DNA of 64,000 bases from Prorocentrum cordatum (taxonomy: Eukaryota), in the NCBI GenBank assembly GCA_963575745.1, contig CAUYUJ010000117.1, positions 1 to 64,000 of the forward strand. Reading direction: 5' to 3'. Position numbers and translations under genes: made by a program. The notes beneath the pieces are model-generated. The model was not told where the DNA came from. It saw only the letters and a program-made list of their open reading frames with translations, and did not search any database. This document shows, in pieces, positions 521 through 49,194 of the stretch (positions within the stretch are counted from its first letter, which is position 1; the number at the start of each line of letters is the position of its first letter).

Positions 521-1042
521 TTCTCATGGTTCGCGTACTAGAAATGATATTTTGGAGCCACCCACGATTGTCAGTGTGTAGCAGCTGCGTTGATTCGCGG
601 TGTTGAAGTCCCAGACATGGTGTTCTGGCACGATTCAGGATCGCCAAGACGTAACTGTCAGGTTAACTCGTGGCGTTGAAATCCTGGGAATGGTGTTTTG
701 GTGTGCTTCAAGATGTCCACACGGTTGTCCCCCCATGGGGCAATTCCCTCAGTGGAGGATGGCCCCTCGTCCTGTGAAGAGGGATCTTGGAGGCAGGGTG
801 TATTTCAACATCGCTGAAGAGTCGTGGATTTGAACTGGTCCTCCTCCTCCTCATCATCCTCCTCCGCCTCCTCCCTGCCAGAGATTGTGTCCCACCGTGG
901 CCAGTCGTCGCTAATCTGCGCCGACCTCCTCCTACTCCTCCGCCTCCTCTTCCTCCCTGCTCCCTGTTCCCTGCTCCCTCCTTCTCTACGTCCTCCTCCT
1001 CCTCCTCCTCCTCCCTCCCCCTCCTCCTCCTCCTCCTCCACA

Positions 1043-1620
1043 ATTACTCAATATGAATACTACTCTCCCTCTTCCCCTGATGACGGTTTGAAAGTGTCCG
1101 ACCCCCCCACCCCCGCGTACTGTTTTTTTACACAGGTTTCCCCGGAGTTGGGTTTTCGCCTGCATTTTTTTCAAAATGCTGCTCTCGCTGAGGCGCCAGC
1201 CTCGTTTTCGGGCCCCGCTCGTTCCGAATCGTGCTCCCGCTGCAGCGCTGGCCTCATTTCCGTGCTTCCGCTCGTTCCGAATCGTGCTCCCGCTGCAGCG
1301 CTGGCCTCATTTCCGCGCTTCCGCTCGTTTCGACTCGTGCTCCCGCTGCAGCGCTGGCGTCATTTCCAGTGCCATGCCACGGCATGCAATGCAATGCTAG
1401 GTTGATACTGCGCTTTGCGGTGCTCTTCTACGCCATGCCATGCCGTGCTCTACAATGCATCGCGTACCCTTTCGGGATCATTGCCCTGCTCGACATCCGA
1501 CTGTGCGAGTAGAGAGGGGATCTGCGCCATGGGAAGGGATGGGAGGGAGGGGTAGGATGTCAGATATGACGCGAGCGCACCTAGCTTGCCCTCCTCCCCC
1601 TCTCCCTCCTCCCCCTCCCT
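1043..1620 (+). repeat. Dispersed non-coding element, copy 1, with 3 internal ~53-bp tandem units; inverted copy at 43130-43940
   Basis: Head 'tactcaatatgaatactactctccctcttcccc', units 'cgctcgttccgaatcgtgctcccgctgcagcgctggcctcatttcc' and tail 'gggagggaggggtaggatgtcagatatgacgcg' all occur reverse-complemented at 43130-43940. Confidence 0.85.
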
Positions 1621-2544: not shown

Positions 2545-3270
2545 TACAGCAGCTTCACGGAAGGAGGGCGTGCCATTGTCAAAATGTGGCTCTTGCCCTC
2601 GCGCCGCGCAATCGTCGTTGCAGCAGCTTCACGATTGGAGGGCCACTTTGAAAATGTGGCTCTCGTCTTCGCGCCGCGCACATTCGCTTTAGAAGTTTGC
2701 TGCATCTTCGCAGATGGAGGGCGGGCCATTTTAAACATGTGGCTGTCGCCTTAGCGCCGCGTTCATTAGTCGCAAATGTTTGCGACAGTTTCACGGTCGG
2801 TTGGCGGGTGATTTTCAACATGTGGCTCTCGCCCTAGCGCCGCGCACATTCGTCCTAAACGTTTGCAGCAGTTTTGCGGATGGAAAACTGTGCCTTTTCA
2901 AACTGTGGTTTTTGCTTTAGCGCCGTGCGCATTCGTGTTAAGAGGTCACCGCGCTGTCAAGGATTGTCATGGTTAGCATTCGGAAAACGGTGCTTTGACA
3001 CGGTGTCGGACTGTCAGGGTGCAAACGTTGATTCGTGGTGTTGAAGTACCAGAAATGGCGCTCTGGCACGATTCTGGACCGTCAAAATGCAGCAGTCACG
3101 GTGATTCGCGGCTTTTGAGCCCCAGTTCCAGATTCTCAAACGGTTGGCTTCCAACGGGGCGCTCTCCCCCCAGTGAAGACGAATCCTTGCCGGTGCTTAT
3201 GAACAGAGGAACTTGTAGGGAGGGCTTATTGCAGAAACGCTATGTGAGCCTTGAGTTGATAACGCTCCTC
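2545..3270. repeat. Second ~83-bp array (2545-2940) plus a tail homologous to 590-830; a diverged duplicate of the window start
   Basis: Same core at ~2589, 2659, 2742, 2825 and 2907. Tail 'gtgttgaagtaccagaaatggcgctctggcacgattc' matches 'tgttgaagtcccagacatggtgttctggcacgattc' at ~601. Confidence 0.8.
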
Positions 3271-3531
3271 ATCCACCTCCTTCTCCTCCTCCTCCTCCTC
3301 CTCCTCCTCCTCCTCCCCCTCCTCTTCCCCCTCCCCCTCCCCCTCCCCCTCCCCCTCCTCCTCCTCCTCCTCCTCCTCCTTTTCCTCCTCCCCCTTTTCC
3401 TCCTCCTCCTCCCCCTCATCTTCGTCCCGTTGGCAGGGGGCGGCCCCCGACCCGCCAGCAAGAATGCCCAGGACCAGCTACAGGCAACAACAACAAGGAT
3501 GAGGGGGGGTGACGAGGGGCAGGAAGGACAG

Positions 3532-3666
3532 TAGGAGGAGGAGGAGGGAGAGAGGAGGAGGAGGAGGAGGAGAAGGAGGAGGAGGAGGAGGAAGAGGAAA
3601 ACGAGGAGGAGGAGGAGGAGGAGGAGGAGGAGGAGGAGGAGGAGGAGGGTGAGGAGGAGGAGGAGG
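3532..3666 (-). repeat. (TCC)n microsatellite forming the 3' tail or target of LINE-A
   Basis: GGA repeats on the + strand directly abut the LINE 3' UTR. Confidence 0.9.
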
Positions 3667-3765: not shown

Positions 3766-6700
3766 TCAGTCCATGAGGCATTCCCAGAAAGCGTCGCACT
3801 CCTCCTGTACCAGGGAGCGCGGTACCGCTTCGAGGGAAACCTTCACTGCGTAAGGGTTCCTGCCTCGGCGCAGGAGCGAGAGGCGGTACCCTGCGGTGGG
3901 GTTCGCTGGGGCCGCAACGCAGGCGCCCAGGAGCTTGCACCCCCTCTCGCTCGAAAAGACACCGCACCGATCGCAGAATGTATACTGGCCCACGCGGTGC
4001 AACTCGTGCCCCAGGGCCGCTCCACGGAGGGCGGGAGAAATGTCTCCTTCCCCTTCCCCCCGCCCCAGCCCGACTCCCCAACGACGATCCACCCTCATCT
4101 TACCCAGGCAGGGTCTGCGCGCCAACGCGCGCCTGGTCTTGCTGGAGAAAGCCTTGCGGCCACACGTCGAGCAACGCCACGCCCCCCTCCTCCAGAGGAG
4201 GACGTGGGCTCGGGCCCCCTCGGGCGGCCCTTGCCGCCGTCGGCGGGCCCCGCTGGAGCCCGCGGCAGGCCTCCCCGTGGAATCCCCGAAATCCGCCGTC
4301 AGCCCCGTCACCCCCGCCACCAGAGTCAACACCGCCTGGACCTCCGCCGAGCGGGTGGTCCAGGTCTGGGCCTTCCACGGGGGGACCTCCTGCATGTCGG
4401 CCCCTAGGCGGGCCTCATTATCTGCCAATTGATTCCCTTGAAAATCGAGAAGGCTTTCGTGCGAGTCATCGTTTGGCCCGCGAGCATGGGCCTTTACCTT
4501 GGCGGCCTGGAAGTCGCCTTCTTGGCTGAAACTATCCTGGAGCTGGGCCCAGATCCTGCCCCGGAGGTCGGCGTGAGGCCTCCGAGGGCTGCAGCACCAG
4601 CGGGGACCTCTACGGAGGCCTCGAATGACTGAACTGTTGTCGATCCCTACCCTCAGCGGAGGGTGGGCGCTATACAGCAACTCGAGCAATCCATACAATT
4701 CAGCACGGAGGACGGAGGCGAGGCCACGCAGCCCTGGGAGGGTACCCCGCATGGCCTTGACAGCCCCCCCGTCCTGGTCCAGGAAAACGAAGCCCCAACC
4801 GAAACTCTTGAGCCCTGGTGGGCCTCTGGCCGATCCGTCGGAGTAGGCCCGCCCTGAGACCAGCGGGGGATTCACAAAATCGGGGTTTTCATCCTCCAGG
4901 GCAGAAATCCAATCAGACTGCGGGTCCTCCAGGGGGTGCTCGTGAAGCCCACGGGAGAAGAGGAGGGAATCCGAGGAGGAGGATTCAGCACGATGCACGA
5001 TCCCTTGGAGGCCCTCAACCTCGGCGACGGTGGCTCTCGCAGCTCCCCGGTCTGGGCAGCAACAGAAACGATGGTGCTGACATCCGACTTCAGCGCCACA
5101 GGTTTGACAGGACCTGTCGTCCCCGAAACCCGCGCGCCAGACCTTTTCCTGGGTCCAGAAGTCTCGGCCTATGTAGGCCAGGATAGCCGATCGCCTCTGC
5201 GGCGATCGGTTAGCCTTTCGCCGAAGGAGAGCCCGAATAGGCTCGAGGAAAGGACGGGTGATTCCGAGGTCCCTGGAAGCCGCCCACGAGGTCATTACCG
5301 CAAATTCCAAACGGGTCCAGATCAGCTTCTTGAGACACTGCGGTGCCGTCCTACGCAACTCCCAGTGCTGCCCGAGATGGTCGGAGAAAACGTGAGGGGC
5401 AGGCCGCGTCCACGAGAGGAGATGGAGTGTGGCCCAGACGGCGGAGGCAGGTCCTTTTATCTGTCTCCAGGGGTTGCTCCCAGGCTTGGCGGCAGCGGCC
5501 GCCGCAACAGCTCTGCGCCACCCCGCAGCCATGATCTCATCATGGTTGCCAGCAAAGATAGCCTCCGCCCATTTGAGCAGCGGCTTCGTGCAAGCGTCGG
5601 CCAGGGGGTCGCAGCGAAGCGTCCACAGGCGCAGCAGTCGGTCCTTACCGATTGCGTTCCCGCCCAGCGCTGAAGCCATGAGAGCCCTCGCTCGGGTGAG
5701 CCGAGTCGGGTCCATTCCGAGGCAGACCGCCCCATACAGCACAGAGGGGAGAAATCCCATACGCGCAACTTGAAAGGTGCGCGCGCCCTGCTTGCCGAGA
5801 CTCGATAACTTACTTCTACGTCGCCGAGCGCTCCCCATCCTGGCATCGGCTCTGGCGCGCAGCGACGCAACTCCTCCTCCCGCCGAATCAACTCCGAGCT
5901 GCGTGCTGTTGGCCTGGACCTCCAGTCCAAGGCTGTGGGCCCAGCCTTTGATGCGGGCTCGCAGGGGGCGCTGCGCTGTCATGATGAACCCCTTGCCCTT
6001 CGGCTTGTCTGGTCGGACCCTGGAGACGGGGATCCCACGGGCCTCCATTTCTTCTATATACTGGGTCGTGGCCGCATGCAGCGAGGCCGAGACATCCGCC
6101 TCCGCACCTCGCGCCTGAATGCTTAAACCATCGACAAATAGCTTCAGCTGCATGGCAGGGTGCTCTTGCGCCAACCCGTCTACAACTGACAAGATGGCTA
6201 GCTTGAGGCATCTCGTGCCCCCCGCTGCTGCCAGCAACGACTGCAGAGACTGTGGTGACCGAGTGCACCGACACCACGCCGCGGAACGAAACAAAACGCG
6301 TGGCTGTGTATATTGAGATCAGGAGCTTCAAAAGCTGCAACCGAAACTGATGCTTGGGCGCCTCGGCCCACAGCAAGCACATCGTGACATGCTCGAACGC
6401 CTTCTCAAGGTCTAGGACCGCCGTGCCCGTCACCTCCCCAGGTTGGGCTCCTTCGTCGAACAACATTTGCTGCCATATCGCTTCCTCTGAGCCCCCGCCT
6501 GGCGCCGCGAAGTCGTAGTCCCGTCGAATCTCCCGCTCCCAGTCGTGGGGCTGGTGCGAGTGCGCGCGCTCCACCAGCCGCGCGGCAGTGGTGAGGGGGC
6601 CGATGGGCCTAGTCCCCCCACCCTGCTTGGCCAATAGAAAATACATCACGTAGCGCAGCTGGGGGGGCCACCTGGCCGTGCGCGACACATATGCGACGAA

Positions 6701-9492
6701 GGCGGCCAGGAACGCGAGCCCTTCGTCCCCCAAGCTCGCGAACCACCTGGGGTGCCAGTTGTCCACCCCGACCCCCGTGTGCTCTGGGAAGGCCCTGCAT
6801 ATGGACCTGATGTCGTCCGCTGTCGGCTCGACCATGCTATGCTCGAAAGTGGTCGCCTCCCAAGGCCGAGGGAGCTCGCCTCGGCTCTGGGCGCCGTGGG
6901 AGGTCCAGAGGTCGATCCACTTCAGCGCCTCCAGGTCCACCGCGGCCTGTGGACAGGTCATGTCCAGATTGGTGTGCCCTCGGGCCCCGAGCGTGGGGTC
7001 GACCCCCTGGCGCCACTTCGACATGCGGTGGACGAAACCTGCGCCTCCTTGTGAGCCGTCCTTGAGCCTCTGCCGCCACGCCTTGGCCCTCTGGTCTCGG
7101 AGGCCCTGCTCGATGACGTGGGCCTGCTGCGTGGCCCGACGCTGCAGCTCCATCGCCCTGGGGGCGTCCTCCCAGAGCGCGTCGCCGTCCCAGGTGAGGT
7201 CGCCCAGCGATAGGAGCTCGGCGTGCACGGCCTTGGCGTCGTCGCCCAGCGCGTCGCACCAGCGGGCAGCACCATGGTGGAGGCGTCTGCGCAGGCGCCG
7301 CCACTGGTCGGCAAACGGCTGCCAGTCGCGCCGCTGGCGGGCCGCCTGCGCCAGCCAGACGATGTCCCCGACGCGGCTGGCCACCCGGCGCCATGCCCTG
7401 GAGCGCGTGGTGCCCCTGGGCCTCGCATGCGCCTCTGGGCCTGCGATCGGGGCTCTGGCCCATCGAGGGTGCCCCCCCTGCCAGTGTAGTCGGCCTCGCC
7501 AACGAGGTCGTGGATGCCCTGCAGGTCGTGCTCGGCCGCCGCCGAGAACTCAGCCCACAACTCCTCCAGCTCGGCGTCGCTGTAGCTTGCTCCGCTGTCG
7601 AGGATCGGCCAGGCTGGAGGCTCCCGACGACAGCCCACGGGGAGGCGAGTCGGGAAAGCACGGGGCTTGACCAGCCTCCAGCCTAGCCGCTCCCGCAGCG
7701 GCCTCTCCGCCGCGATGGCGGCGGGGCTGTGCGGGGCGGTGGGCGCGTCGAGCACCTCCGCTGCACCGAAGGCTGACGCGATGCGCGTGTCCACCACGAA
7801 GTAGTCGATGACCCTCCCGCCTCCCTTGCCTTGGCAAGTGGGGGCGGCCGAGGAGAAGATGGTGCCCCCGACGTCGGCCACCCAGCCCGTGGCCATGAGC
7901 GTGTCGGGGGTGTTGTGGAAGTCGGCCTGGAGGACCCACGGGATGTCGCAGGCCCTCGCTAATTCTCCAATGGCGTCCAAGATGGACAGGTTGCGAACCG
8001 TCCAGCCCTCGGAAACCCAGAAGTAGGCGCTGAGGACCATGAGGCCACCACGAAGAAACCCAGGGGTCCAGGCCGCCACCAGCCTTCCTGGCGATCCTGG
8101 CGGCGAGAAGTCGAAGGTGTCCACGCCCTCGAGGTAGGTGAGGCCCACGCAACGTGGGGCGACGATCCCCACCCCTGCCACTCTGCCGCCACCTGGCCCC
8201 ACCGCCGCGGGAGCTAGGGCGACGGTGAGGTGCCTCTGGAAACAGCTGGCACTGATCTCGCCGACGTAGTCGCTGGTGAGGCGGTGCTCCTGAACCAGCA
8301 TGATGGTATTCCTGCCCAGCGGCATCTCGTCCAGATGGTCGACGAGGGTGCCCCAGGCGCTGCCGTTGAGGCCTCTGAGCACCATGCCAGGCTTTGCGTG
8401 GCGCCCCTTGCCTCGAGACCTGGGCCTCCAGTATCCCTCTCCCCAGCTGGGCTGCATCGGCCACCCCCACGTCGGGGGAGCCGAGCTGGGGGCGCTCGTG
8501 TCGAGAGGCGTCGACCACCCGCACGTCTGCGGCTCTCGGTCCCGCGAGCACATCGCTGATGGCATCGACCACCCGCCTGGCGGCGGCACCAGCGAGAGGG
8601 GCGCATGGGGGGAGGCATCGGCCACCCGCGCATCCGCGGCTCCCCACTCATGCGCCACTGGGGCCTCTTCTGAGGCGTTTGTGGCCGTGCTCAAGACTGA
8701 GCTGACATCCATGTCGGGCTTGGCGTGGCGCCCCTTGCCTCGTGGTCGGGAGTTCCAGTATTCCTCTCCCCAGCTGGGCTGCATCGGCCACCCCCCCGTC
8801 GGGGGGGCCGGGCTGGGGGCGCTCGTGCCGGGAGGCTTCGACCACCCGCACGTCTGCGGCCCTCCGTCCCACGAGCTCATCGCTGACAGCGTCGACCACC
8901 CGCCTGTCGGCGGCATCAGCGAGAGGGGCGCATGGGGAGAGGCAACGGCCACCCGCGCATCCGCGGCTCTCCACTCATGCGTCACTGGGTCCTCCTCCGA
9001 GGCGTCCGTGGCCGTAGTCGAGGCTGGGCTGACCCCCATGCCAGGCTTGGCGCGTCGCCCTCTGCCCCGCGACCGAGGCCTCCAGTAACCCTCTCCCCAG
9101 CTGGGCTGCATCGGCCACCCCCTCGTCAGGGGAGCCGAGCTGGGGGCGCTCGTGTGGAGAGGCGTCGACCACCCGCACGTCTGCGGCTCTCCGTCCCACG
9201 AGCACATCGCCGATGGCTTCGACCACCCGCCTGTCGGCGGCATCAGCGAGAGGGACGCACGGGGAGAGGCATCGACCACCCGCGCATCCGCGGCTCTCCA
9301 CGCATGCGTCTCTGGGGCCTCTTTCGTGGCGTCCGTGGCTGTGCTCGAGGCTGAGCTGCAGTCCAGCCGTCGGAGCCACGGCGCGAGCAGCTGGCGGCGG
9401 AGCGTGTCCGCGCCCCTGAGCGCCCGCCGCGCCCAGGTGCTTGAGGAGGAGCTGTCGCCGTCCCCGTCCAGGATGTCGAGGCCCTCCTCCAT
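3766..9492 (-). pseudogene. LINE-A ORF2 (repeat region, APE endonuclease, reverse transcriptase, RNase H, Cys-rich tail) with two frameshifts
   Basis: Split over ORFs 6958..11070, 5888..7384 and 3766..6294. Frameshifts fall in G runs at 7472-7478 and 6218-6223. The RT catalytic motif reads FVDG, not (Y/F)xDD. Start at ATG 9492 is a guess. Confidence 0.85.
8382..9360 (-). repeat. Three 327-bp (109-codon) in-frame tandem repeats upstream of the APE domain
   Basis: Unit starts at 8382, 8709 and 9036. Peptide AADARV..SLMPPTGGWS..QTCGWS..GWPMQPSWGE.YW occurs three times. Confidence 0.95.
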
Positions 9493-9763
9493 GGCTGGGA
9501 CGTGGGCGCTCGTCCCCACGATGAAGGCGACCCGCTTAGGCCCAGGCTGCCTCCGCCTGCTCGCCCTTCGGGGCAGCTCCTCCAAGTCGGGCGGAGGAGG
9601 CGCCCCCCATGTAGTGGTAGTGCTCGTAGAGGTGGTGGGGGTCGCCACGACCCCGTCGATGTCGGGTGGGACGGCTGGCGCTCCTCGCCTCCGCGCGGCA
9701 GTCTTGCCTCGGCCACGGCGTGGGCGCTGACGCCACCTTCGCCAGCCTCGCGGGGCTGGTCCT

Positions 9764-10891
9764 TCAAGCTGTGCTGGAGTCTTCGTCGGCCGCTGGGGGC
9801 TTGGCTGCTGCCCGCTCCAGGATCCTGGCTCGGACGTCCTGTGCCAGCTCGCGCTTAGTCCTGCCTGTGGCCCCCGCAGGAGCATTGGCGCCTGCAGCGC
9901 CGCCTCCGCTGGCTGCAGCAGCGTCGCGAGCACCGTCAGCGCCAGCAGGGGGAGGGGCTGGTGGCCCCGCTGTGGGGGCCGCCTTGGCCGCGGCCGCCAC
10001 TGGCTGCTTGCCGTCTGCGCCGCCTTTGCCTGCCGCCTTGCCTGGTGGCGCCGCTGAGGCGGGAGCTGCAGCGGCCTCTGGCGGGGGAGGCTCCGACCGA
10101 GCACTCTTGCTCTTGAGCCTGTCGCTGAAGGCCTTGAGGTCCGCTCGCATCGCGGCGAGCCCCTCTGCCGCTGGGCCGAAGTGCCTCTTGACCTCCGACT
10201 GGACCTGCTTGACGAACTGGCCCATCTGCTCCTCGTACTGGCGGTGCTCTTCAGGCGGGATGTCGAGTCCCTCCAGGTCGAACGCCTTGCCTGGCCGCAC
10301 GCTGAGGATATCCAGGTTGCCCTCGAGCAGCTGCGAGAGGTCCAGGGCTGGCGTGGGCCCCTCCGCAGGCGCGACGACCTTGGGCGCCGCTCGGGCGTAG
10401 GCCGCCTGGACCGCCGCCTCAGCGTCGGCGACCTCGAGGACCCAGGTCTCCCGCTGCTCCTTCTGGTCCTGCAGCCACTGCTCGCCCTCGGAGATGCTCT
10501 CGATGGTCCTCTTGAGCGCTGCTTCGGCCCTGCGGAGCCGCGCCTGGGCCTGGTTGAGGGCGACGTCTGGGTGCACGTCTGGAGGCTGCGCACGGGCGAG
10601 CGCCTCGAGGTGCTGGACAGCCTCTGCGTCGCCGTCGGGGAGGGTGGCCCGCAGCTGCTTGAGAAGCTCCTCGCGGCTCGGCTTGACTGACGGGCGACTG
10701 CGGCGCCGCGAAGAGGCGCCGCTGGGGCCCCAGGCGCCCTGCGGGGCTCGCTCTTGTGAGGTGGCTGGCTGCAGACCTCCCTTGCACTTGTAGCACTCCG
10801 ACCTGTTGGTCCAGTTCCACTTATATCCACATCCCCTGCACTTCGCACACTGGCTTCCAGTCTGCTGATCATCCTTCTCCCTGCGCCCCGT
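9764..10891 (-). CDS. LINE-A ORF1: RanBP2-type zinc finger + coiled coil + Ala/Pro-rich tail (~375 aa); start codon reads ACG
   Basis: CRGCGYKWNWTNRSECYKC motif followed by heptad-like ALNQAQARLRRAEAALKR. No in-frame ATG between the SL relic and the finger; ACG at 10891 would give M-GRREKDD. Confidence 0.75.
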   Translation of the reverse strand, partial: TGRREKDDQQTGSQCAKCRGCGYKWNWTNRSECYKCKGGLQPATSQERAPQGAWGPSGASSRRRSRPSVKPSREELLKQLRATLPDGDAEAVQHLEALARAQPPDVHPDVALNQAQARLRRAEAALKRTIESISEGEQWLQDQKEQRETWVLEVADAEAAVQAAYARAAPKVVAPAEGPTPALDLSQLLEGNLDILSVRPGKAFDLEGLDIPPEEHRQYEEQMGQFVKQVQSEVKRHFGPAAEGLAAMRADLKAFSDRLKSKSARSEPPPPEAAAAPASAAPPGKAAGKGGADGKQPVAAAAKAAPTAGPPAPPPAGADGARDAAAASGGGAAGANAPAGATGRTKRELAQDVRARILERAAAKPPAADEDSSTA

Positions 10892-11044
10892 GCGCGACCG
10901 TGAAGAACTGATCTCCTGCCCGACCAGTACAGTACAGGAGCTCCTCGGAGCGTGAACGAAAATGTGAGGGAGCCTGCCTTGCCCAGCAGGCCCCTGATGC
11001 GCGGGCCGAGCCTGCTGGGCAGGCCCCTGGTCCCTGCAAACCAC

Positions 11045-11070
11045 CTCGAGAAATGGTTTACTTGAGCCAA
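11045..11070 (-). other. Relict dinoflagellate spliced leader (TTGGCTCAAG, 11070-11061) followed by a possible second degenerate relic (CCATTTCTCGAG)
   Basis: Exact match to the last 10 nt of DinoSL (DCCGTAGCCATTTTGGCTCAAG), located precisely at the microsatellite/LINE boundary. Confidence 0.8.
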
Positions 11071-11185
11071 GGAGGAGGGGGAGGAGGAGGAGGAGGAGGA
11101 GGAGGAGGAGGAGGAGGAGGAGGGTGACGAGGGTGACGAGGAGGAGGAGGAGGAGGAAGAAGAGGAGGAGGAAGAGGAAGGTGAC

Positions 11186-11217
<32 letters not shown>

Positions 11218-11304
11218 GGAGGAGGAGGAGAAGGCGGAGGAGGAGGAGGAGGGGGAGGGATATGATGATGATGATGATCATGCTGATGATGATGATGAGG
11301 AGGA
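11071..11304. repeat. (GGA)n/(GAT)n microsatellite between LINE-A and the YR element
   Basis: Directly visible. Confidence 0.9.
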
Positions 11305-11476
11305 GGAAAACGAGACTCAAGCTGGGGGGCGGGGGGCCTGCAGCGGCGGGGCGCCGGCTGCGGTGCCGCTCGCCTGCCGCCGGCGGCTGCCGACATGGTG
11401 CGTGCTGACCTTTGCACCGACGTGGGGTGATGCTTGGTGCAGGTCCACCAGCCCAGCCCAGGGTCTGCACCCCCGC
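11305..11476 (-). repeat. Split direct repeat B2 (3' terminus of the YR element)
   Basis: Matches 11691-11851 except a 10-nt insertion (ggcggctgcc) and one extra C. Confidence 0.93.
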
Positions 11477-11564
11477 AGAGCTGCGGGCACAACTGGGGAG
11501 TGGCACCCCAGCAGCCCAGCCTTTCCAACCCTGCCCACGGTCTACCCCTGGGTGGGCGGGCGGG

Positions 11565-11851
11565 CAAAACCAGGGAAGGGGCCCTGGCCAACCTAGACCC
11601 TCCGGTCCTGAACCAAAACTGCGCGGCGCCCCCCGCCCCGCTCCTCTCCCTACGTTTTCCGTGACATGCAATGCTAGCCTCGCTGTCTGCGGAAAACGAG
11701 ACTCAAGCTGGGGGGCGGGGGGCCTGCAGCGGCGGGGCGCCGGCTGCGGTGCCGCTCGCCTGCCGCCGACATGGTGCGTGCTGACCTTTGCACCGACGTG
11801 GGGTGATGCTTGGTGCAGGTCCACCAGCCCAGCCCAGGGTCTGCACCCCGC
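11565..11851 (-). repeat. Internal B1-A2 junction (B1 11691-11851, A2 11565-11693, sharing the TCC trinucleotide)
   Basis: + strand 'gctgtctgc GGA aaacgagac' joins copies of the two termini. Confidence 0.93.
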
Positions 11852-11892
11852 GTGTATGGGCTGGGCGCGAACACCCCACGTGGCGCCCGAAC

Positions 11893-13350
11893 TTACATGC
11901 GCTCTGGTTCGGGCTCGCTGTCGCTGTGGTCAGCAACGAGCTGCGCGCGCGCACCCGTCTCGAGCTCGTGCGGCTTCATGTATGCCATGAAAGCCGCAGA
12001 TCGCCAACCACCTGCTTGTAAAATCTCCCACAAAGGACATCCTTGAGCTGCCATGTCCTGAGCGGTTCCACGCCGGAACGCGTGCGCCCCTGCGTTCTCT
12101 ACACCGCACCGCGCGGCATACGCCCGCGTCTCTCGGAGATAGGCGTGGTACCAAAAAGAGAAAACTCTCGTTTGCCCGCTTGACCTGGCCCTCCGCGCTG
12201 CTGCGACAAGCCGGCGCACGGGGCACATGCGCGCCCCCTGTGCTCTACACGCGCAGTCCCTGCGAATAGCCACGGGAGCTGTTGAATTTTTCCTGCTTGC
12301 CAAACTTACGATGGCACATCGCTCTGTAAATTCAACGCCAGAATGGCGACCACGGAAAAACGGGCCATGCATCAGCGGCACAAGTTCCGCGCCAGCGCGG
12401 AAAAGAAAGCCGCGCGCCACGGCAAAAACATCAGCCAGTTCATGCTTGCCTTCGGCTCCAGCTGCAGAGATCATGTGTTTCACGACATGCCCGTGCAGAG
12501 CCGGGCGGACGCGAACTTGGCCAGCGCCCCTGCGGCGCGCCCCTTTGACCATCTGCTGCGCGCCTCCTCCCCACCAGGTGTTAGGTAAGTCCAACAACTT
12601 CTGTGCCCACCGAAGGTGTTGCACATAATTTCGCAATGTCGGCCCGTGCGGGACAAACATCGCGAATTGGCGGACACTGTCAGCTGTAACGGGAAAGTGT
12701 GGCAAGGAGAAGCATTCGCAAAACTCCGCCCAAGCGTAAAGGGCGCTGCGTACTGTCTTCCAAGAGCCACGGACTGTTTCCATGGCGGCACGTCTGGAAC
12801 CCTCTCGCAACAGAGTTTCCTGATCCACCCTCGCTGGCAATCCGCGCTGGCTCGCCTGGAGATTCGCTAACCTTTGTCTCGGCGTCCCCGTACTGGGGAC
12901 AACTGCCGAGAACCGTTCCTGAAACGACTGTCTGCACAGCGCCTCGCACCTAGCAGTCTCATCAAAAAAGTCCCCAAGAGCGTGCGCTACGTCGTACCCG
13001 GTAGAGTGGGAAGATATGACTTGTAACCACGTTTGCCCTGGACCGGGCCGAGGGCGCAAGGCGGAAACCAAGGCGCTCACCTTGGGACCTCTGCGGTGGC
13101 CAACACCACGCGGAGCAGGCCAAACAACAACGGCGCGCTCTTCAGCCAGTGATCTCGCCACGGAGGGCGCCAGGCCCGCGCCAGCGTGTAGACCCCGTGC
13201 GGGGAGGCGCCGCAACCCCTTCGGGCTACGGCTCCGTGGCGCCGCTAAGCCTACAGGCGTCGGCGGCGGTTTCCGCGGCTCGGGAGATGGATCCCGCCGG
13301 CGAGGGCGATGGAGCCCTACTGGGCAGATTGGCCGGGGGGCTCCAGCCAT
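11893..13350 (-). CDS. Tyrosine recombinase (phage-integrase family, DIRS-type)
   Basis: Catalytic set R (FLFRAGAE), K (SRKNS), HxxR (GAHAFRRG), W (AGGWRS), Y (FMAY). In-frame ATG at 13350; frame open from 13416. Confidence 0.92.
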   Translation of the reverse strand: MAGAPRPICPVGLHRPRRRDPSPEPRKPPPTPVGLAAPRSRSPKGLRRLPARGLHAGAGLAPSVARSLAEERAVVVWPAPRGVGHRRGPKVSALVSALRPRPGPGQTWLQVISSHSTGYDVAHALGDFFDETARCEALCRQSFQERFSAVVPSTGTPRQRLANLQASQRGLPARVDQETLLREGSRRAAMETVRGSWKTVRSALYAWAEFCECFSLPHFPVTADSVRQFAMFVPHGPTLRNYVQHLRWAQKLLDLPNTWWGGGAQQMVKGARRRGAGQVRVRPALHGHVVKHMISAAGAEGKHELADVFAVARGFLFRAGAELVPLMHGPFFRGRHSGVEFTERCAIVSLASRKNSTAPVAIRRDCACRAQGARMCPVRRLVAAARRARSSGQTRVFSFWYHAYLRETRAYAARCGVENAGAHAFRRGTAQDMAAQGCPLWEILQAGGWRSAAFMAYMKPHELETGARAQLVADHSDSEPEPERM

Positions 13351-14000
13351 GGCGCCCCCGGGGGGGGGGGGGCGAATCGCGGCGCCCGTTTCCTTCCCCG
13401 CCGGCCGACCTGTCAAGCCGTTTTGCGCGAGTCACTCATCGTGCGCACAGGTTCCGCCAAGTGCAAAATCGTCGTCGTCGTCGCCGCCGCCGTCGCCATC
13501 GTCTCCTCCACTCCCTCCTCCGAGGACCGGAGAAAGACAAGGCAGGGGGAAACGAGGAGGGTGAACAGAGAGGGAGGGGGCAGGGGCAGGGGCAGGAAAG
13601 AGCGAGGAGGGGGCAAAACCCCAGAGCAGGTAACACGGAGAAGGAAAAATGAGATCTCCCTCTTCGCTCCCGTGCCGACACGACGGCGGGATTTCCGGCC
13701 GCGTTCGCAGGACAGCCTTGGCTACGCAATGTGCGCCCCAGGAGGGGTGACAACATTTCCGACAGCAAGTCTCGGCGCGGCCTGGGGTCGCGGGTGGGCC
13801 GGTATACCCAAAAACGGATACAAAGGAATGATGCGAGCACGCGCGTGACCAGATACCCAGAGTCTTTCAGCAAGGACGTGAACGGAGGAGGGCGCCTGGA
13901 GGGGAGGGAGGCGAAGGAGGGGGCAGGGGGGGAAAGGGAAGTGGTGAAGAAGCAACAAGGAGAGCGACAATGGGATGCCAGAGCTTCGCGCGTGCGTGTG

Positions 14001-15976
14001 TCACGGGTCAGCGAACACTGCGTCAAGGGTCGGCCACCGCAGGGCCCGGCGATGGAAATCGCGCCATGGTCCGAGGATGTTCCTACTTAGACAATCAGCT
14101 GGGTTACTGGCAGAAGGCACCCAGCGAAACTCAACGCAGGCGTGCGCCTGAGCAGCGGCAATCCACGCATCACCCGCGATGCTGTTCAAATCTTGTTTTC
14201 GTGACCAACCGGACACCATGACATCTTTTGCACACGTGTTATCTATGAAAACCAGGACCCTTCTGCCAGATACCTCCCGCCTCCAAGTGTGCAGCGCTGC
14301 GGCTACAGCAAGGAGTTCAAATGCATTTATCTGCGTGCGCCTCGCGCGCAAAATGCGCAGCCAAGACTTTGGGAGAATTGCTCATAGCATATTCCCTGTG
14401 CTCCCGGTGAGTCCACACTACTGCGGCTCCAACTCCCCCGGTGCCTTCGGCATCAGTATAAAGAAGCATGTCAAAAGCCGCCTCCGCGAGTTCGCGGACG
14501 TGAACAACGCTGCCAATCTGCTCCTTGAGCAAGCGAATCCACCAGCTCAGACAAGAGCGCTCCCGGCGCGTGAGCGTACGACTGGCGTGACTACTTGCGG
14601 CTGCCCGCCAATAGAAGGGCCGCAAAAATGAACGCCCGACTCGGCCGAACGCTCTCTGACACGCAAAATTTAAACGCCCTGCGAACCTGGACGCCACGGC
14701 TTGAGACATAGACCCGGAATCCAAGATTAAGCGCAACTCGTGGACCCACGCGTTTGCTTTCTCGAACCCGAGGGGCCACGTGACTTCGCGTGGCCCAACG
14801 CGCACGTCGCATCCTAGCAAAAATATGGAGTCGCACATGCCTGCAGATTTGCGGGGATCGAGCTCCCAACCTAACATGGCAACCAAGTCTTGCCATGTTT
14901 GCTTTGCCCTGTGCGCGTGCGCGGAGAGTTCGGCAAGGAACGCGTCATCCACGTAAATGAACAACACTAAACCAAACAAGCGCACAGCGATCCTTTTAAT
15001 CGCCTGCGCGCACCTCCACCAGGCGTACACGCCGCCAACGGCCCCGAAGGGCTGAGTGAGCAGTTGCGAAACCTTCCATTGGTTGCTGTCCGTGTCAAAC
15101 ACAAGGCACCACATCAACCAGGATTGGCCGATGTCCGGGCACACCGTTGTAAAAAGCAGAAGCGAAATCATCCTTTCCCACAGAAACTGGGGCGACGCCC
15201 TGCGGCGACGAATCGCCAAGAAGGCGCGTCAACAAAAGCACCGCGTGCGTTAAGTGGTCGTGAGTGTCATTCCACACCTTTTCTGTAGAAAAAGCGAAAG
15301 AATTGACGCCGTTGTTGCTAAAATTGTCGATTACACGAACCTTGTTTTGGCCATTCCTGGTCTCGTTGACGCCGAAACGTTCGACTAGTAAAACGCTGCT
15401 CAAATCAATATCTGACACCGCGGAAGGGGGGGCCACTTTGCCTACGCCGACTTCCTCGCAATGCTTCCGCCACACTTCCGCGGCGCAACCGCACGGCGTA
15501 GCCTGCGCAAGCGTGCGTGCGTTGACCTCGCGGCAACGCGCCTGGAGATCCGTCGGACATGGGAGGCAGCCGACGGCTTCCCTGCCATGGACCAACAGGG
15601 GCCCATCTGCCGGCTTCCCGACGCCTCCCGCGTGCATCGCCCCCGACACCGGGAACCCAAACGTGAGATGATCAACGAGGCTGGCGCCCCCGTGGTCCGC
15701 TGCCTCCAACATCTCCCGCAGGAGCGGCACATGCAACTTACCTACGGTAGTTTGAAACTGCGCCGGCACCCTGCGGCGCCACTCCTGCCTTGCAGGCTCG
15801 AGGGCCTGCGCCCGCCCTCGCCGAAAACGAAGGGCGCGCGCCCTCTCGGAGGCCACGGCGGCGGCGTCGGAGGCGACAGCCTGAATATTTGTAACGATAT
15901 CTGGATCCAACGAAGGAAGCCCATGCAGGCACGTTGACGACGCGCGATTCTGCGCGATATGCTCCTCCGGAGACAT
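14001..15976 (-). pseudogene. YR-element pol: reverse transcriptase + RNase H with two 1-nt frameshifts in homopolymer runs
   Basis: KVRVIDN, KDDFASAF, QPFGA, IYVDD, LYTDA, INAFELLAV, FIDN, WVPSASNPADCLSR. Shifts at T runs 15151-15155 and 14350-14353. Confidence 0.9.
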
Positions 15977-16369
15977 CGCGCCACCTGGGTGCCCAGGCCC
16001 GGGGGCCTCCTTTCCGGCGAGCGCGGCAGGGGGCCCGCGGGTGCTGCCGCCAGGCAAGCAAGAAGAAACCGTGTCTGCCTGTCTGCTGCGCCTCTGCGGG
16101 CTGCTTTGCGCCCGTTGTGAAGAGCAGAGGGGGCGGGGGCAAGGGCGCAGTGAGGGGCAAGGAGGGGGGGGCGGTGGAGGGGAGAGGTGGGCGGCGGAGG
16201 AGCGCAGAGGACTCTATGGACCCGAGGCGCCATTGCCCGCAGAAGAAAAGAGCTGGCGATCAGCCTGCCTCCTGTCACGACACGAAGCCGCGGCCTCACT
16301 CGCAAGCGGCCCCTCCCCAACGGGTGGAATGTCCCTCGAAATCCAAGCACAAGTTGCCTCGCCGCCGCT

Positions 16370-17749
16370 TCAGTAGCCCTTGCGGGCGCCCTTCGGCGGG
16401 GCCGCCGGCGGCGGGGGCCGCGGCGGGAGCTGCGGCCGGGGCGCCGCCCCCTGCGGCGCGCCGCCCTTGCCCTGAGGCCTACCCCTGCCGCCGCTGGCAG
16501 CGCCGTCGCTGGAGTAAGCCCACTGCCGCTGCCGCGGCGCCTCTGCCGGCGCCTTGGACCGGGAAACCTGGTCCCGCACCTCCGACTTCACGTGGGTGTC
16601 CACCTTCTCGAAGGTCACCGCCGGCTTCGCGTGCGGGTCCCTGTTCTCCAGGCGAGTGGCCAAGTGCTGCCACTCGCGCCTGTCCAGCTCGTAGACTACG
16701 GCCACGTTGCTCTCTTGTGCCAAATGGCACAAATCCAAAAACCTCCGGAGAAGCCTCTCTATCGAGACCGACTCGACCCCAGTCTCTGCCTGCAAGACAA
16801 GTTGGGAAAGAGAGCGGCTCCACCAGCACGAAGCGAAGTGCGCGAAGGAAGCGTATTCCTGACCTTTCTGAGCTTTCCGGAGGGAGCTGTCCACCGACCG
16901 CCGGAGCGGCTCGAAGGTGTGCTCCAAGTCCCCGGAAACCCAAGGCAGGCGGTCGTGGGCCGCCTTCCTCCTGGCCTTGCGCCAGAGGGGCTGGAGCGTG
17001 GCAGACTTGGGGAGGTTCTCCAGAGGGAGCCCTTCCAAGCCGTACTTGGCGAGGGCCTTGCAGACGTCGATAGACGACGTCTTCTTGTCGTTCGTGTCCG
17101 AAGAGGAAGCCGACCGGGACCGGCCCCTTCGGTGGCGCGTGGCGTGCCTGGCGCTCTTGGCGACAGCCTCCATGGCCTTCACGGATGCCTCGTTGAACGC
17201 ATCCGACGCTCTCGTCGGACCCGCCGGGGGTGGTTCCGCAGGCTGCTTCTGGATCCGCTCGACCACAGCAGACACGAGCAAGAAGGCCGTGGTGTCCACC
17301 TCGCGCTCTAGTGGGTCCCTGCAGACCTCCTTGACGATTTCTGGATTCAGGAAGCGGAGCTGCCAACCAGAATGGATGCCCGCATCCTCAAGGCGCCCTG
17401 CGACGCGGAGCAACTCCCCCTCCTCGACCCGCGGGGGGCACAAACGACGCAAAGTAGCCTCTACAGGCTCGGACTCGTAGTCTGCAGTTGGGGTCCTGCG
17501 ACCCTCCTTCGAAGGTGAACGTGCCGCCCGTGCGGGCGATGGCAAGACTTCGTAAACCTCTTCGGCCCTACGGCCCGCAGCACTCTCCTCGGCCCTGCGG
17601 CCTGAACCAACTTCCTCGGCCCTGCGGCCTGAACGTGAACGCCCTCGCCTCCGCGACCGACGTGGCTGGAGCGCTGCCCGCGGCTGCCTGCGGCGCGAGC
17701 GGGACCGGTCGCTGGGGCTGCCCGACCGGCGCGGGGACGGGGCCGGCAT
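16370..17749 (-). CDS. YR-element ORF1 (gag-like, 459 aa, RS-rich N-terminus)
   Basis: ATG 21 bp after repeat A1; uninterrupted ORF upstream of pol; helical segment VYELDRREWQHL typical in position for DIRS gag. Product assigned by position. Confidence 0.75.
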   Translation of the reverse strand: MPAPSPRRSGSPSDRSRSRRRQPRAALQPRRSRRRGRSRSGRRAEEVGSGRRAEESAAGRRAEEVYEVLPSPARAARSPSKEGRRTPTADYESEPVEATLRRLCPPRVEEGELLRVAGRLEDAGIHSGWQLRFLNPEIVKEVCRDPLEREVDTTAFLLVSAVVERIQKQPAEPPPAGPTRASDAFNEASVKAMEAVAKSARHATRHRRGRSRSASSSDTNDKKTSSIDVCKALAKYGLEGLPLENLPKSATLQPLWRKARRKAAHDRLPWVSGDLEHTFEPLRRSVDSSLRKAQKGQEYASFAHFASCWWSRSLSQLVLQAETGVESVSIERLLRRFLDLCHLAQESNVAVVYELDRREWQHLATRLENRDPHAKPAVTFEKVDTHVKSEVRDQVSRSKAPAEAPRQRQWAYSSDGAASGGRGRPQGKGGAPQGAAPRPQLPPRPPPPAAPPKGARKGY

Positions 17750-17769
17750 GGCTGACCCGGGGGGGATGC

Positions 17770-17898
17770 CAAAACCAGGGAAGGGGCCCTGGCCAACCTA
17801 GACCCTCCGGTCCTGAACCAAAACTGCGCGGCGCCCCCCGCCCCGCTCCTCTCCCTACGTTTTCCGTGACATGCAATGCTAGCCTCGCTGTCTGCGGA
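17770..17898 (-). repeat. Split direct repeat A1 (5' terminus of the YR element)
   Basis: Identical to 11565-11693. Confidence 0.95.
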
Positions 17899-17905
17899 GG
17901 AGGAG

Positions 17906-36899: not shown

Positions 36900-41080
<4,181 letters not shown>

Positions 41081-43592: not shown

Positions 43593-43940
43593 GTGCGCGT
43601 GTGCTGGGGCATGGCACGGGAAATGACGCCAGCGCTGCAGCGGGAGCACGAGTCGAAACGAGCGGAAGCGCGGAAATGAGGCCAGCGCTGCAGCGGGAGC
43701 ACGATTCGGAACGAGCGGAAGCACGGGAATGAGGCCAGCGCTGCAGCGGGAGCACGATTCGGAACGAGCGGGGCCCGAAAATGAGGCCGGCGCCTCGGCG
43801 AGAGCAGCATTTTGAAAAAAATGCAAGCGAAAACCCAGCTCCCGGGAATCCTGTGTGTAAAAAAGCAGGTCGCGGGGGGGGGTCGGCTACTTTCAGGCCG
43901 CCATCGGGGGAAGAGGGAGAGTAGTATTCATATTGAGTAT
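43130..43940 (-). repeat. Dispersed non-coding element, copy 2 (inverted relative to 1043-1620), with a (GGT)n/(GT)n core
   Basis: Same head, 53-bp units and tail as copy 1; different middle. Confidence 0.85.
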
Positions 43941-43944
43941 TTAT

Positions 43945-45349
43945 TGTGAAGGGAAGAGGGAAGGGAAGGGAGGGGGAGGAGGAAGGGGGGAAGGGGATGG
44001 GGGAAGGGAGGGGGGGAGGGGGGGGGAGGGGGTATCGGGATGGGGAGGAGGAGCGGGAGGGGGAGGGGGGGGGATGGGTAGGGAGGGGGATAGGGGAGAA
44101 AAGGGAGGGCAAGCGAGGGGGGAGGGGGGGGGCACCCGCGGCAGAAAGTAGGAACCCGCGCTGGGCGACCCGGCTAGCCAGGTGGGAAGTTGTCCTGAAA
44201 GAAAAAGGAAAGGGAGGAGGGAGGGGAGGGGGAGGGAAGGGAGCGAGGGGCATGGGAAGGGAGGAGGGAAATAGAGGAGGGGAATGGGGAGGGAAGGGGG
44301 ATGGGGGAGGGGAGGGAAGAGGAGATGGAGGAGGGGAGGGGAGGTGGTGGGTGGGGTGGGATCGGGGAGAGGGAAGGGGGAGGGACGAAGGAAGGGTGGG
44401 GGCATGGGGGAGGGCGGGTGGCAGGGGTACGGGGGAGCGGGGGAGGCGCGAGGGAGGAGGAGGTGCGGAAGCACGTTGGGCTAGTTACTTCCATTTCGCA
44501 GGTGTGCGTAGTTTTTCCGCGCCGCCGCGCGTCCTGCTTGTCCCGGATGGGTCCCAGAGAGGACCCCCGAGGTACCGTGTGCATAGAGTCACGCTGCATC
44601 GGAGGAGTGGGAGGAGTGGGAGGAGGAGGAGGAGGAGGAGGAGGAGGAGGAGGAGGAGGAGGAGGAGGAGGAGGAGGAGGAGGAGCAGGAGGAGCAGGAG
44701 GAGCAGGAGGAGGAGCAGGAGCAGGAGCAGGAGCTGGAGCAGGAGCAGGAGCAGGAACATGAGCAGGAGGGAGGGACGGAGGGAGGGACGGATGGATGGA
44801 TGGAGGGAGGGAGGGAGGAGGAGGAGGAGGAGGAGGAAGAGGAAGAGGAATCATTACCATAATACTATAATACGGAAATGAAGAATATCCATAGAAACAA
44901 GAATACTAGTAATAGTATTAGTAATACTAACAATACTAATAATACGACTACTGATAATACTAATAATACTAGTACTACTAATAATAATGATGATGATGCT
45001 GCTGATAATAATAGCAATAATAACACTAAGACGATTGATACGACAAAACTAAGAATGATATGCATACTCATAATACTAATAATAAGCAGAACAATTAGAC
45101 TAGTCCTAAGAATGCTAAGAAGAAGATTTATGATAATAGGAATAACAAGAATGACACTACGGAGAATACTAAGACTGAAACACTAATAATAATATTGGGA
45201 ATACTACGGATAACAATAAAAGAGGAATACACATATTAACAATCATAATTCGAATCAGAATAAGAGGAGGAGGAGGAGGACGAGGAGGAAGAGGAGGAGG
45301 AGGAGGACGAGGACGAGGAGGACGAGGAGGAGGAGGACGAGGAGGAGGA
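43945..45349. repeat. Low-complexity block: G-rich purine tract, (GGA)n, AT-rich (AAT/ACT)n, (GGA/GAC)n
   Basis: Directly visible. Confidence 0.9.
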
Positions 45350-48989: not shown

Positions 48990-49064
<75 letters not shown>

Positions 49065-49193: not shown

Positions 49194-49194
49194 G

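What the first reader, a model, noticed from the sequence alone, without database searches (positions are those of the whole stretch)
11295..11315. YR element integrated through a TCC core that matches the (TCC)n microsatellite
The internal B1-A2 junction, which is the predicted circle junction, reads tctgc-GGA-aaacg. The left end reads gaggagGGA-like repeats into aaacg and the right end reads tctgcGGA-ggaggag. Removing the element restores one continuous (GGA)n run with no other duplication. Inference: the recombinase crosses over at a 3-nt TCC core, so the abundant (TCC)n tracts serve as attachment sites. This would be a microsatellite-directed integrase.
Basis: partly seen in the sequence, partly recalled or inferred. 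Interest (0 to 1): 0.75.

Follow-up and report, generated by a model that had tools for sequence, protein, structure and literature searches.

The report
Ngaro-type retrotransposon in a GGA repeat
A 6.6-kb jumping gene that inserts with a Cre-like tyrosine recombinase sits in a short GGA repeat and shares one GGA triplet with it; this fits the known three-base integration rule of its class, but one copy cannot show that it seeks out microsatellites.

Summary
The element (window 11308-17898, minus strand) is a DIRS-order, Ngaro-type retrotransposon. It encodes a gag-like ORF, RT, RNase H and a Cre-like tyrosine recombinase (profile vs Cre, E 9e-14, all catalytic residues aligned). It has split direct repeats that overlap on one GGA/TCC triplet.

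A 3-bp circle junction that recombines with an identical genomic triplet, leaving no target duplication, is already the published model for this order (PMC3266345, PMC7192593). That part of the reading is supported but not new.

The microsatellite-directed part is not shown:
- There is one copy only.
- 617 of 2857 GGA/TCC triplets outside the element (22%) lie in perfect runs of 5 or more units, so a plain TCC-core element lands in such a tract about one time in five.
- The insertion is in an 18-nt minor run, not in any of the 21 long TCC-type arrays.
- In a repeat whose unit equals the core, a shared triplet and an added triplet look the same.
- No other copy with flanks could be fetched.

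One contig of another run joins internal-B-A-internal, which suggests tandem or circular forms.

Verdict: a new family of a known kind, of modest interest.

The parts
11070..11258 (.). Imperfect (GGA)n array (63 units, 82% matches) about 40 nt left of the insertion. It is not the insertion site itself.
   Evidence: (TRF)
11262..11297 (.). (GAT)n tract between the long (GGA)n array and the short GGA run that was hit.
11298..11307 (.). Left half of the target: a GGA run ending in the left copy of the triplet (GGA 11305-11307).
   Evidence: 3 perfect GGA units end here, the triplet included
11308..11473 (-). This is B2, the 3' terminal repeat, in the element's sense orientation.
   Evidence: identical to 11694-11849 apart from a 10-nt indel
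11474..11564 (-). Unique 91-nt linker between the outer A and inner B repeats. It resembles neither end of the internal region.
   Evidence: alignments fall to random level; no other hit
11565..11690 (-).
   Evidence: with the triplet, 129 nt identical to 17770-17898
11691..11693 (-). Triplet GGA (TCC in sense) at the internal junction. This is the predicted circle-junction core.
   Evidence: A junction-spanning contig exists in run X1 (record 1) and in run X4 (record 23).
11694..11849 (-). It lacks 10 nt that A1 has; the X1 contig has an insert of the same length at that place.
   Evidence: 10 nt put in behind 11764
11896..13431 (-). Tyrosine recombinase ORF (512 codons stop to stop; first Met at 13350). 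Catalytic R168, K204, H273, R276, W299 and Y307 of the 335-aa C-terminal part; the Tyr codon is 11982-11980.
   Evidence: profile vs Cre E 8.8e-14 over Cre 39-341; Phage_integrase matched by 8 of 9 members; the window's own protein only at E 0.02, below Pfam's cut-off
14004..14381 (-). RNase H part of pol. It is in a different frame from the RT in this copy.
   Evidence: RT_RNaseH E 0.0028, DNA_pol_viral_C E 7.6e-4, both below Pfam cut-offs; X1 contig lacks 1 nt at 14377, which would join the frames
14320..15228 (-). Reverse transcriptase, second part, with a YVDD motif.
   Evidence: (RVT_1 E 0.00099, below cut-off), (Atlas features: RVT_1 clusters, score 0.94-0.96)
15098..16213 (-). Reverse transcriptase, first part. 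It overlaps the second part in another frame, so this copy has a frameshift near 15151.
   Evidence: X1 contig lacks 1 nt at 15151; an A at the edge of an A5 run
16373..17797 (-). ORF1, gag-like by position only (475 codons; first Met at 17749).
   Evidence: no Pfam hit
17770..17895 (-).
17896..17898 (-). Right copy of the triplet GGA.
17899..17905 (.). Right half of the target: GGAGGAG, then non-repetitive sequence (TTCATG...).

Best explanation
The finding is the left end of a 6.6-kb Ngaro-type (DIRS-order) tyrosine-recombinase retrotransposon on the minus strand, window 11308-17898.

In sense orientation it reads: A1, then gag-like ORF, RT, RNase H and YR, then B1, A2, a 91-nt linker, and B2. 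The two repeat kinds overlap on one TCC (GGA on the + strand) at the internal B1/A2 junction, and the same triplet stands at each outer end. All of this is shown.

The mechanism is inferred, following the published model for the order. A transcript is copied into cDNA and closed into a circle whose joint reproduces the internal junction. The Cre-like recombinase then exchanges strands between the TCC of that joint and a TCC in the chromosome, leaving the element between two TCC copies without a target duplication.

The site hit was a (GGA)5 run. In this genome region 22-35% of all TCC/GGA triplets lie in such runs. An element that needs only a TCC core will therefore often land in (TCC)n tracts by mass action. 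Active recognition of the microsatellite is not needed to explain this copy and is not shown.

This copy carries two frameshifts in pol relative to contigs of another run, so it is probably not autonomous.
For: - Structure: repeats and junctions.
- Coding strand and domains: RVT_1, RNase H, RT-like features. The YR profile matches full-length Cre at E 8.8e-14, with R, K, HxxR, W and Y aligned to Cre's catalytic positions.
- Layout: A1-[ORFs]-B1A2B2 without a methyltransferase is the published definition of Ngaro (PMC8547959 section 11; PMC13465315 Background).
- The 3-bp junction rule is in print. [quoted passage not shown] PMC7192593 section 26 says the same.
- Short donor = target motifs have been seen in real time for a YR transposon: CryptonF-1_cRei ends in CACCG and targets CAYCG (PMC9977147).
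- The B-GGA-A junction also stands in contigs of two other runs, X1 record 1 and X4 record 23. The triplet therefore belongs to the element rather than to this site.
- Null model: 617 of 2857 triplets lie in perfect runs of 5 or more units, and 1007 of 2857 in runs of 2 or more.
Against: - There is only one copy, and the pre-insertion allele is unknown.
- In a repeat whose unit equals the core, a shared triplet and an added unit cannot be told apart.
- Cre-type enzymes cut 6-8 bp apart (established knowledge, recalled). A 3-nt identity is short for that, and no lox-like inverted arms flank the junction: the best is 7 of 11, reached by 651 of 2000 shuffles.
- Domain hits to RT and RNase H are below Pfam's cut-offs.
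- The window may be richer in TCC tracts than the rest of the genome, so the 22% null may be too high. That would favour the directed reading.
- The X1 contig joining internal-B-A-internal suggests that the element's own junction may be the preferred target.
Confidence: 0.55

Rival explanations
1. The recombinase, or a partner such as ORF1, actively prefers (TCC)n tracts. The TCC junction has evolved to exploit the most abundant microsatellite as a harmless, repeated attachment site.
For: - The insertion lies in a (GGA)5 run beside a 189-nt (GGA)n array.
- TCC-type arrays are very abundant here: 21 arrays of about 3.5 kb in total by my count of the rows, and 64 perfect runs of 15 nt or more.
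- Published DIRS1-like junction triplets are mostly NTT (23 of 28; PMC3266345), so a TCC core that equals the local repeat unit is unusual.
- Ngaro families can have strong target preferences, apparently set by ORF1 (Cafeteria Ngaros in virophages; PMC8547959).
- Other retroelements of GC-rich algae do target microsatellites (Chlamys PLEs; PMC8557442 and PMC9977147).
Against: - One observation with a null probability of about 0.2-0.35.
- The hit is an 18-nt minor run, and none of the 21 long arrays in the window carries a copy, a solo repeat or a relic.
- No similarity between junction and target beyond 3 nt.
- Eight distant relatives in metagenome contigs show no TCC runs or other simple repeats. 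In L001 the 3' repeat ends against non-repetitive DNA. This is weak evidence: these are other families, and assemblies break at microsatellites.
Confidence: 0.25
2. The integrase needs only the triplet, or has a regional preference. The location reflects survival or neighbourhood: insertions in neutral, repeat-rich, TE-rich DNA persist, or the element homes to TE clusters.
For: - The element abuts a LINE-like retroelement in the same orientation. A 1439-codon minus-strand ORF starts in the (GGA)n array, with weak RVT_1 and RNase_H hits further on.
- The window is dense in satellites and microsatellites.
- DIRS-1 is enriched in centromeric heterochromatin (PMC7192593 abstract, listing).
Against: The repeats are identical over 129 nt and 78 nt, so the copy is young and selection has had little time to act. 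One window says nothing about the genome-wide distribution.
Confidence: 0.12
3. The flanking GGA copies are a 3-bp target duplication, or a chance register match of a blunt insertion into the repeat, rather than a recombination core.
For: Within a (GGA)n target, one register in three would give GGA on both sides. The pre-insertion allele is unknown.
Against: - The same single GGA stands between B and A at the internal junction and in junction contigs of two other runs. A site-specific duplication would not explain that.
- The element encodes a Cre-like YR and no DDE integrase was seen.
Confidence: 0.05

Closest known systems
Ngaro retrotransposons (DIRS order), e.g. the Cafeteria burkhardae Ngaros (PMC8547959); definition in PMC13465315
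   Same: About 6-7 kb and GC-rich. Split direct repeats A1-[ORFs]-B1A2B2. ORF order gag-like, RT/RNase H, YR. No methyltransferase domain seen.
   Different: A unique 91-nt linker separates A2 from B2. The junction triplet is TCC. No tree was built, so clade membership is untested. The Cafeteria types prefer virophage DNA; this copy lies in a trinucleotide repeat.
DIRS1-like retrotransposons (PMC3266345)
   Same: A 3-bp circular junction that equals the triplet at both element ends, and integration without target duplication.
   Different: DIRS1-like elements have inverted terminal repeats plus an internal complementary region, a methyltransferase domain and a different ORF order. Their triplets are mostly NTT (23 of 28), with only one GC-rich case listed.
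CryptonF-1_cRei of Chlamydomonas (PMC9977147)
   Same: A YR element whose short terminal motif matches its target (CACCG / CAYCG). Insertions were observed directly, which supports the short-homology model.
   Different: It is a DNA transposon without RT. Its motif is 5 nt, it also excises, and its target is not a microsatellite.
Chlamys and Naiad Penelope-like elements (PMC8557442, PMC9977147)
   Same: Retroelements with a documented insertion bias for microsatellites ((C)n, (CA)n, (TA)n), some of them in GC-rich algae.
   Different: They use a GIY-YIG endonuclease and target-primed reverse transcription, not a recombinase. The bias was shown on many copies.
Cre recombinase of phage P1 (PDB 7rhz, 1nzb and others)
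   Same: Full-length sequence-profile match (E 8.8e-14) with all catalytic residues aligned.
   Different: Cre acts on a 34-bp site with 13-bp inverted arms and an 8-bp spacer (recalled). No such arms are detectable at this junction, and the shared core is 3 nt.

Membership tests
DIRS order (tyrosine-recombinase retrotransposons) | Encodes a reverse transcriptase | tested here: met
   RVT_1 E 0.00099, below Pfam's cut-off of 29.6 bits. YVDD motif in the translation. Atlas feature hits to RVT_1 clusters, score 0.94-0.96. Split over two frames in this copy.
DIRS order (tyrosine-recombinase retrotransposons) | Encodes RNase H next to the RT | tested here: inconclusive
   RT_RNaseH E 0.0028 and DNA_pol_viral_C E 7.6e-4, both below cut-off. 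The position is right.
DIRS order (tyrosine-recombinase retrotransposons) | Encodes a tyrosine recombinase with the catalytic R-K-H-R-(H/W)-Y set, instead of a DDE integrase | tested here: met
   The profile of 9 sequences matches Cre 39-341 at E 8.8e-14. R168, K204, H273, R276, W299 and Y307 align to Cre's catalytic positions. Phage_integrase is matched by 8 of 9 members; the window's own protein reaches only E 0.02. No integrase family appeared in the Pfam scans of the element's ORFs.
DIRS order (tyrosine-recombinase retrotransposons) | No target-site duplication; a 3-bp junction triplet repeated at both ends | tested here: met
   GGA at 11305-11307, 11691-11693 and 17896-17898, and nothing else is duplicated. 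Caveat: in a GGA repeat this test is weak.
Ngaro superfamily | Split direct repeats A1-[ORFs]-B1A2B2 relative to the coding strand | tested here: met
   Sense order: 17898-17770 (A1), ORFs, 11849-11694 (B1), 11693-11565 (A2), linker, 11473-11308 (B2). The 91-nt linker is an extra.
Ngaro superfamily | Lacks the methyltransferase domain of DIRS1-like and PAT-like elements | tested here: inconclusive
   No methyltransferase family appeared in the Pfam scans. Only about 570 nt of low-complexity sequence lie between RNase H and the YR ORF. Not all three frames of that gap were scanned.
Ngaro superfamily | RT or YR groups with Ngaro in a phylogeny | not tested
   No named reference Ngaro, PAT or DIRS1 sequences were available from the tools. 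The nearest proteins are unnamed.
Microsatellite-targeting mobile element | Copies enriched in the repeat above the frequency expected from the core motif alone | not testable with these tools
   One copy in the window. No genome is held. Scans of three collections gave 0 hits. The loose ends at the element's termini were not displayed.
Microsatellite-targeting mobile element | This copy lies in the repeat more often than chance allows | tested here: not met
   617 of 2857 (0.216) GGA/TCC triplets outside the element lie in perfect runs of 5 or more units.

The most novel reading that the evidence does not exclude
This Ngaro family has tuned its circle-junction triplet to the unit of the host's most abundant microsatellite, and its integration machinery prefers tandem TCC. 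(TCC)n tracts would then act as thousands of redundant, harmless, orientation-defining attachment sites. That would be a microsatellite-homing tyrosine recombinase, for which I found no precedent in four literature searches.
Probability: 0.25. Interest if true: 0.65.

Novelty: new member of a known kind. Interest (0 to 1): 0.3.

Why it matters
As it stands, this is a cleanly resolved, young copy of a rare class of retrotransposon in a GC-rich, probably marine, eukaryote. It gives one more example of the 3-bp junction rule, with an unusual GC-rich triplet.

If the family really homes to (TCC)n, it would be the first tyrosine-recombinase element known to use a microsatellite as its attachment site. 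That would explain how such an element can spread with little harm to the host. It would also offer a natural recombinase with a very short, highly repeated target.

The contig from another run that joins internal-B-A-internal is a handle for testing whether DIRS-order circles or tandem arrays exist in vivo, which is an open point of the transposition model.

Tried and rejected
**Searches for other copies with flanks**
- No genome is held for the window.
- blastn and tblastn of the element against the window found only itself. The end motifs with up to 3 mismatches found no further copy.
- An exact 22-nt B-end motif gave 0 hits in metagenome contigs, genome contigs and viral contigs.
- A protein search with the junction-spanning minus-strand frame (11297-11929), meant to catch ORFs running into other copies' flanks, scored nothing among 2891 candidates.

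**Read laying**
- The stretch 11262-11315 was skipped as a repeat.
- The loose-end table was filled by the (GTC)n tract at 13469-13503, and 53 rows were not shown. Neither other flanks nor an empty site could be seen.
- No joint from about 11307 to about 17899 was listed. That is no evidence against an empty allele.

**Distant relatives L001-L008 (28-39% identity)**
- Only L001 showed a split-repeat-like pair (835-941 and 1235-1341). Its repeat ends at ...TTTTC against non-repetitive DNA.
- L003 showed nothing clear.
- None of the 8 loci holds a TCC-type run or other simple repeat. They are too distant to bear on this family.

**Other checks**
- Lox-like inverted arms around the junction: not significant.
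- The linker as a deletion remnant of a second full unit: rejected, because it resembles neither end of the internal region.
- Earlier findings of the scan: none for this genome or sequence. A word search gave three unrelated DIRS/Ngaro notes from other genomes, which were not used.
- Papers, read as passages or search listings only. None of the listed hits describes a microsatellite-targeting DIRS, Ngaro, PAT or Crypton element. Goodwin & Poulter 2004 and Poulter & Butler 2015 are not in the library and were not seen.

Full report
**What is there**

The window is GC-rich (56-73% in 2-kb windows), eukaryote-like and full of tandem repeats (76 TRF rows). The finding's coordinates are the left end of a 6.6-kb element bounded by two kinds of direct repeat.

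On the + strand the order is:

| Part | Coordinates |
|---|---|
| A1 | 11308-11473 |
| unique 91-nt linker | 11474-11564 |
| B1 | 11565-11690 |
| triplet GGA | 11691-11693 |
| A2 | 11694-11849 |
| internal region | 11850-17769 |
| B2 | 17770-17895 |
| triplet GGA | 17896-17898 |

A1 is preceded by GGA at 11305-11307. With the triplet included, the B copies are identical for 129 nt. The A copies are identical for 78 nt and then differ only by a 10-nt indel (169 columns, no mismatch). Identity stops exactly at the triplet on both sides.

**Coding content and strand**

The genes are on the minus strand.

- ORF1, 17797-16373: 475 codons, gag-like by position only, no Pfam hit.
- RT in two frames, 16213-15098 and 15228-14320: it has a YVDD motif and a weak RVT_1 hit at E 0.00099, and its Atlas features match RVT_1 clusters.
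- RNase H, 14381-14004: weak RT_RNaseH and hepadnaviral RNase H hits.
- Tyrosine recombinase ORF, 13431-11896.

The recombinase's C-terminal 335 residues have 8 relatives at E 0.001 or better among 8000 scored candidates. All are unnamed and the best is 55% identical. A profile of these 9 sequences matches Cre recombinase over nearly its whole length (E 8.8e-14). Arg168, Lys204, His273, Arg276, Trp299 and Tyr307 align to Cre's catalytic residues. Pfam's Phage_integrase model is matched weakly by 8 of 9 members, with the window's own protein at E 0.02.

Read in the sense direction, the layout is A1-[gag, RT, RNase H, YR]-B1-A2-linker-B2. This is the published definition of a Ngaro-type element: split direct repeats and no methyltransferase (PMC8547959 section 11; PMC13465315 Background; passages read). 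I built no tree, so superfamily membership rests on architecture alone.

**State of this copy**

Contigs of run X1 lack one base at 15151 and one at 14377. By my frame arithmetic, each deletion would join the adjacent pol frames. The window's copy therefore has two frameshifts, or two assembly errors; 15151 lies at the edge of an A5 run. The repeats are identical, so the insertion is young, or the repeats were homogenised during replication.

**The 3-nt core**

The only sequence shared by the internal junction and the target is the triplet, and nothing else is duplicated. This is not new. For DIRS-order elements the accepted model is that the circle's 3-bp junction recombines with an identical 3 bp in the genome without a target duplication. 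[quoted passage not shown] PMC7192593 section 26 restates it. For a YR DNA transposon the same donor-equals-target rule was seen in real time: CryptonF-1_cRei ends in CACCG and targets CAYCG (PMC9977147).

The triplet belongs to the element rather than to this site. Contigs that span B-GGA-A occur in two other runs: X1 record 1, with 2 other letters in 349 nt, and X4 record 23, with 3 in 157 nt.

What is unusual is a GC-rich triplet; only one GC-rich case appears in the table of PMC3266345.

There is one caveat. Because the target's unit equals the core, this particular insertion cannot tell a shared triplet from an added one. Also, a 3-nt overlap is short for a Cre-type enzyme (recalled knowledge), and no lox-like inverted arms flank the junction.

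**Is it microsatellite-directed?**

The site, with the element notionally removed, is a perfect (GGA)5 run of 18 nt. It is separated by (GAT)n from a 189-nt imperfect (GGA)n array.

TCC-type repeats are very common here. By my count's rows there are 21 arrays totalling about 3.5 kb, and one search finds 64 perfect runs of 15 nt or more.

That abundance is what weakens the inference. Of the 2857 GGA/TCC triplets outside the element, 617 (21.6%) lie in perfect runs of 5 or more units and 1007 (35.2%) in runs of 2 or more. An element that needs nothing but a TCC would therefore land in such a run about one time in five.

Further points against active direction:
- None of the 21 long arrays holds a copy or a relic.
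- Junction and target share nothing beyond the triplet.

I could not obtain other copies with flanks:
- No genome is held.
- Three collection scans with the B-end motif gave nothing.
- A protein search with a junction-spanning frame gave nothing.

Eight distant YR relatives from metagenome contigs (28-39% identity) carry no simple repeats at all. One of them, L001, ends its 3' repeat against non-repetitive DNA. These are other families on short contigs, so this counts for little.

My reading is as follows. (TCC)n tracts are very probably frequent targets because they are dense in cores. An active preference is possible (about 0.25) but not shown. The window may over-represent TCC tracts; if so, the null probability is lower genome-wide and the directed reading gains.

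**An unexpected joint**

In run X1 a 1056-nt contig (depth 7.07, similar to the element's other contigs at 5-12) runs from 17073-17769 through the 129-nt B repeat into A and on to 11913. It is internal-B-A-internal, without the linker, and carries a 10-nt insert behind 11764, at the place where A2 lacks the 10 nt that A1 has.

That is the sequence expected of a head-to-tail tandem of full units or of a unit circle. A de Bruijn-graph artefact cannot be excluded, because contigs do not resolve repeats. If the joint is real, the element's own junction is a good target for its recombinase. This would fit the clustering known for DIRS-1 (recalled; the PMC7192593 abstract notes centromeric enrichment).

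**Neighbourhood**

Immediately left, in the same orientation, lies a LINE-like retroelement.
- A 1439-codon minus-strand frame begins as poly-Ser in the (GGA)n array.
- Weak RVT_1 and RNase_H hits follow further on.
- The endonuclease-like stretch I saw by eye has no Pfam support.
- The element ends near further TCC-type arrays at 3265-3666.

The YR element thus sits in a nest of repeats and retroelements. This leaves room for regional preference or survival bias as an explanation.

**Verdict**

- The element is a new family of a known kind (Ngaro-type DIRS-order retrotransposon).
- The 3-nt core is the known rule of that order.
- The microsatellite-homing idea is an untested hypothesis, resting on one insertion with a null probability of about 0.2.

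Noticed in passing
window 17073-17769 joined to 11565-11913 (run X1, record 1): A 1056-nt contig of another run reads internal-B-A-internal without the 91-nt linker, at depth 7.07, like the rest of the element. This is the form expected of a tandem array or a unit circle of the retrotransposon; an assembly artefact is not excluded.
   Followed up: partly
window 15151 and 14377: The window's copy has one extra base at each place relative to X1 contigs. These split RT and RNase H over three frames, so the copy is either defective or carries assembly indels.
   Followed up: partly
window 3769-11277, minus strand: A LINE-like retroelement lies directly beside the YR element in the same orientation. 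A 1439-codon frame starts as poly-Ser in the (GGA)n array and holds a 3 x 327-nt tandem repeat (8382-9358), then weak RVT_1 and RNase_H hits. TCC-type arrays lie at both of its ends (11070-11258 and 3265-3666).
   Followed up: partly
window, whole: TCC-type trinucleotide arrays are extremely abundant: 21 arrays, about 3.5 kb of 64 kb, on both strands. GGA+TCC triplets number 3107 against about 2320 expected from base composition.
   Followed up: partly
window 13469-13503 (inside the element, between RNase H and YR): A short (GTC)n-like tract attracts enormous contig depth in all four runs, up to 38,700. This is a generic microsatellite match that swamped the loose-end table. It is no sign of element abundance.
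   Followed up: no
runs X2 and X4 (marine metagenomes), window 12865-13053, 17699-17855, 11565-11721: Short contigs identical or nearly identical to parts of the element occur in marine metagenome runs: X2 has 189 nt and 157 nt without a difference. The host or a close relative therefore probably lives in the sea.
   Followed up: no
window 37157-41076: A nearly 4-kb (CACACG)/(CA)-type array with extreme AT and GC skew.
   Followed up: no
window 49301-52058, gap of 100 N at 52059-52158: A 90-nt satellite (about 13 + 4 units, 76-92% matches) preceded by (CAT)n arrays at 48993-49306 and 51539-51682. The assembly gap follows it directly.
   Followed up: no
window 925-1384 and 43602-44066: A 470-nt inverted pair (85.5% identity), each copy holding a 53-nt tandem repeat (1180-1372; 43614-43793) next to a TCC-type or GGGAGG-type tract. 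These may be the two ends or two copies of another repeat family.
   Followed up: no
L001:835-941 and 1235-1341: A distant YR relative (34% identity) on a metagenome contig has a split-repeat-like pair 400 nt apart downstream of its YR gene. The repeat ends in ...TTTTC, resembling this element's ...GTTTTCC end, and abuts non-repetitive AT-rich DNA.
   Followed up: partly
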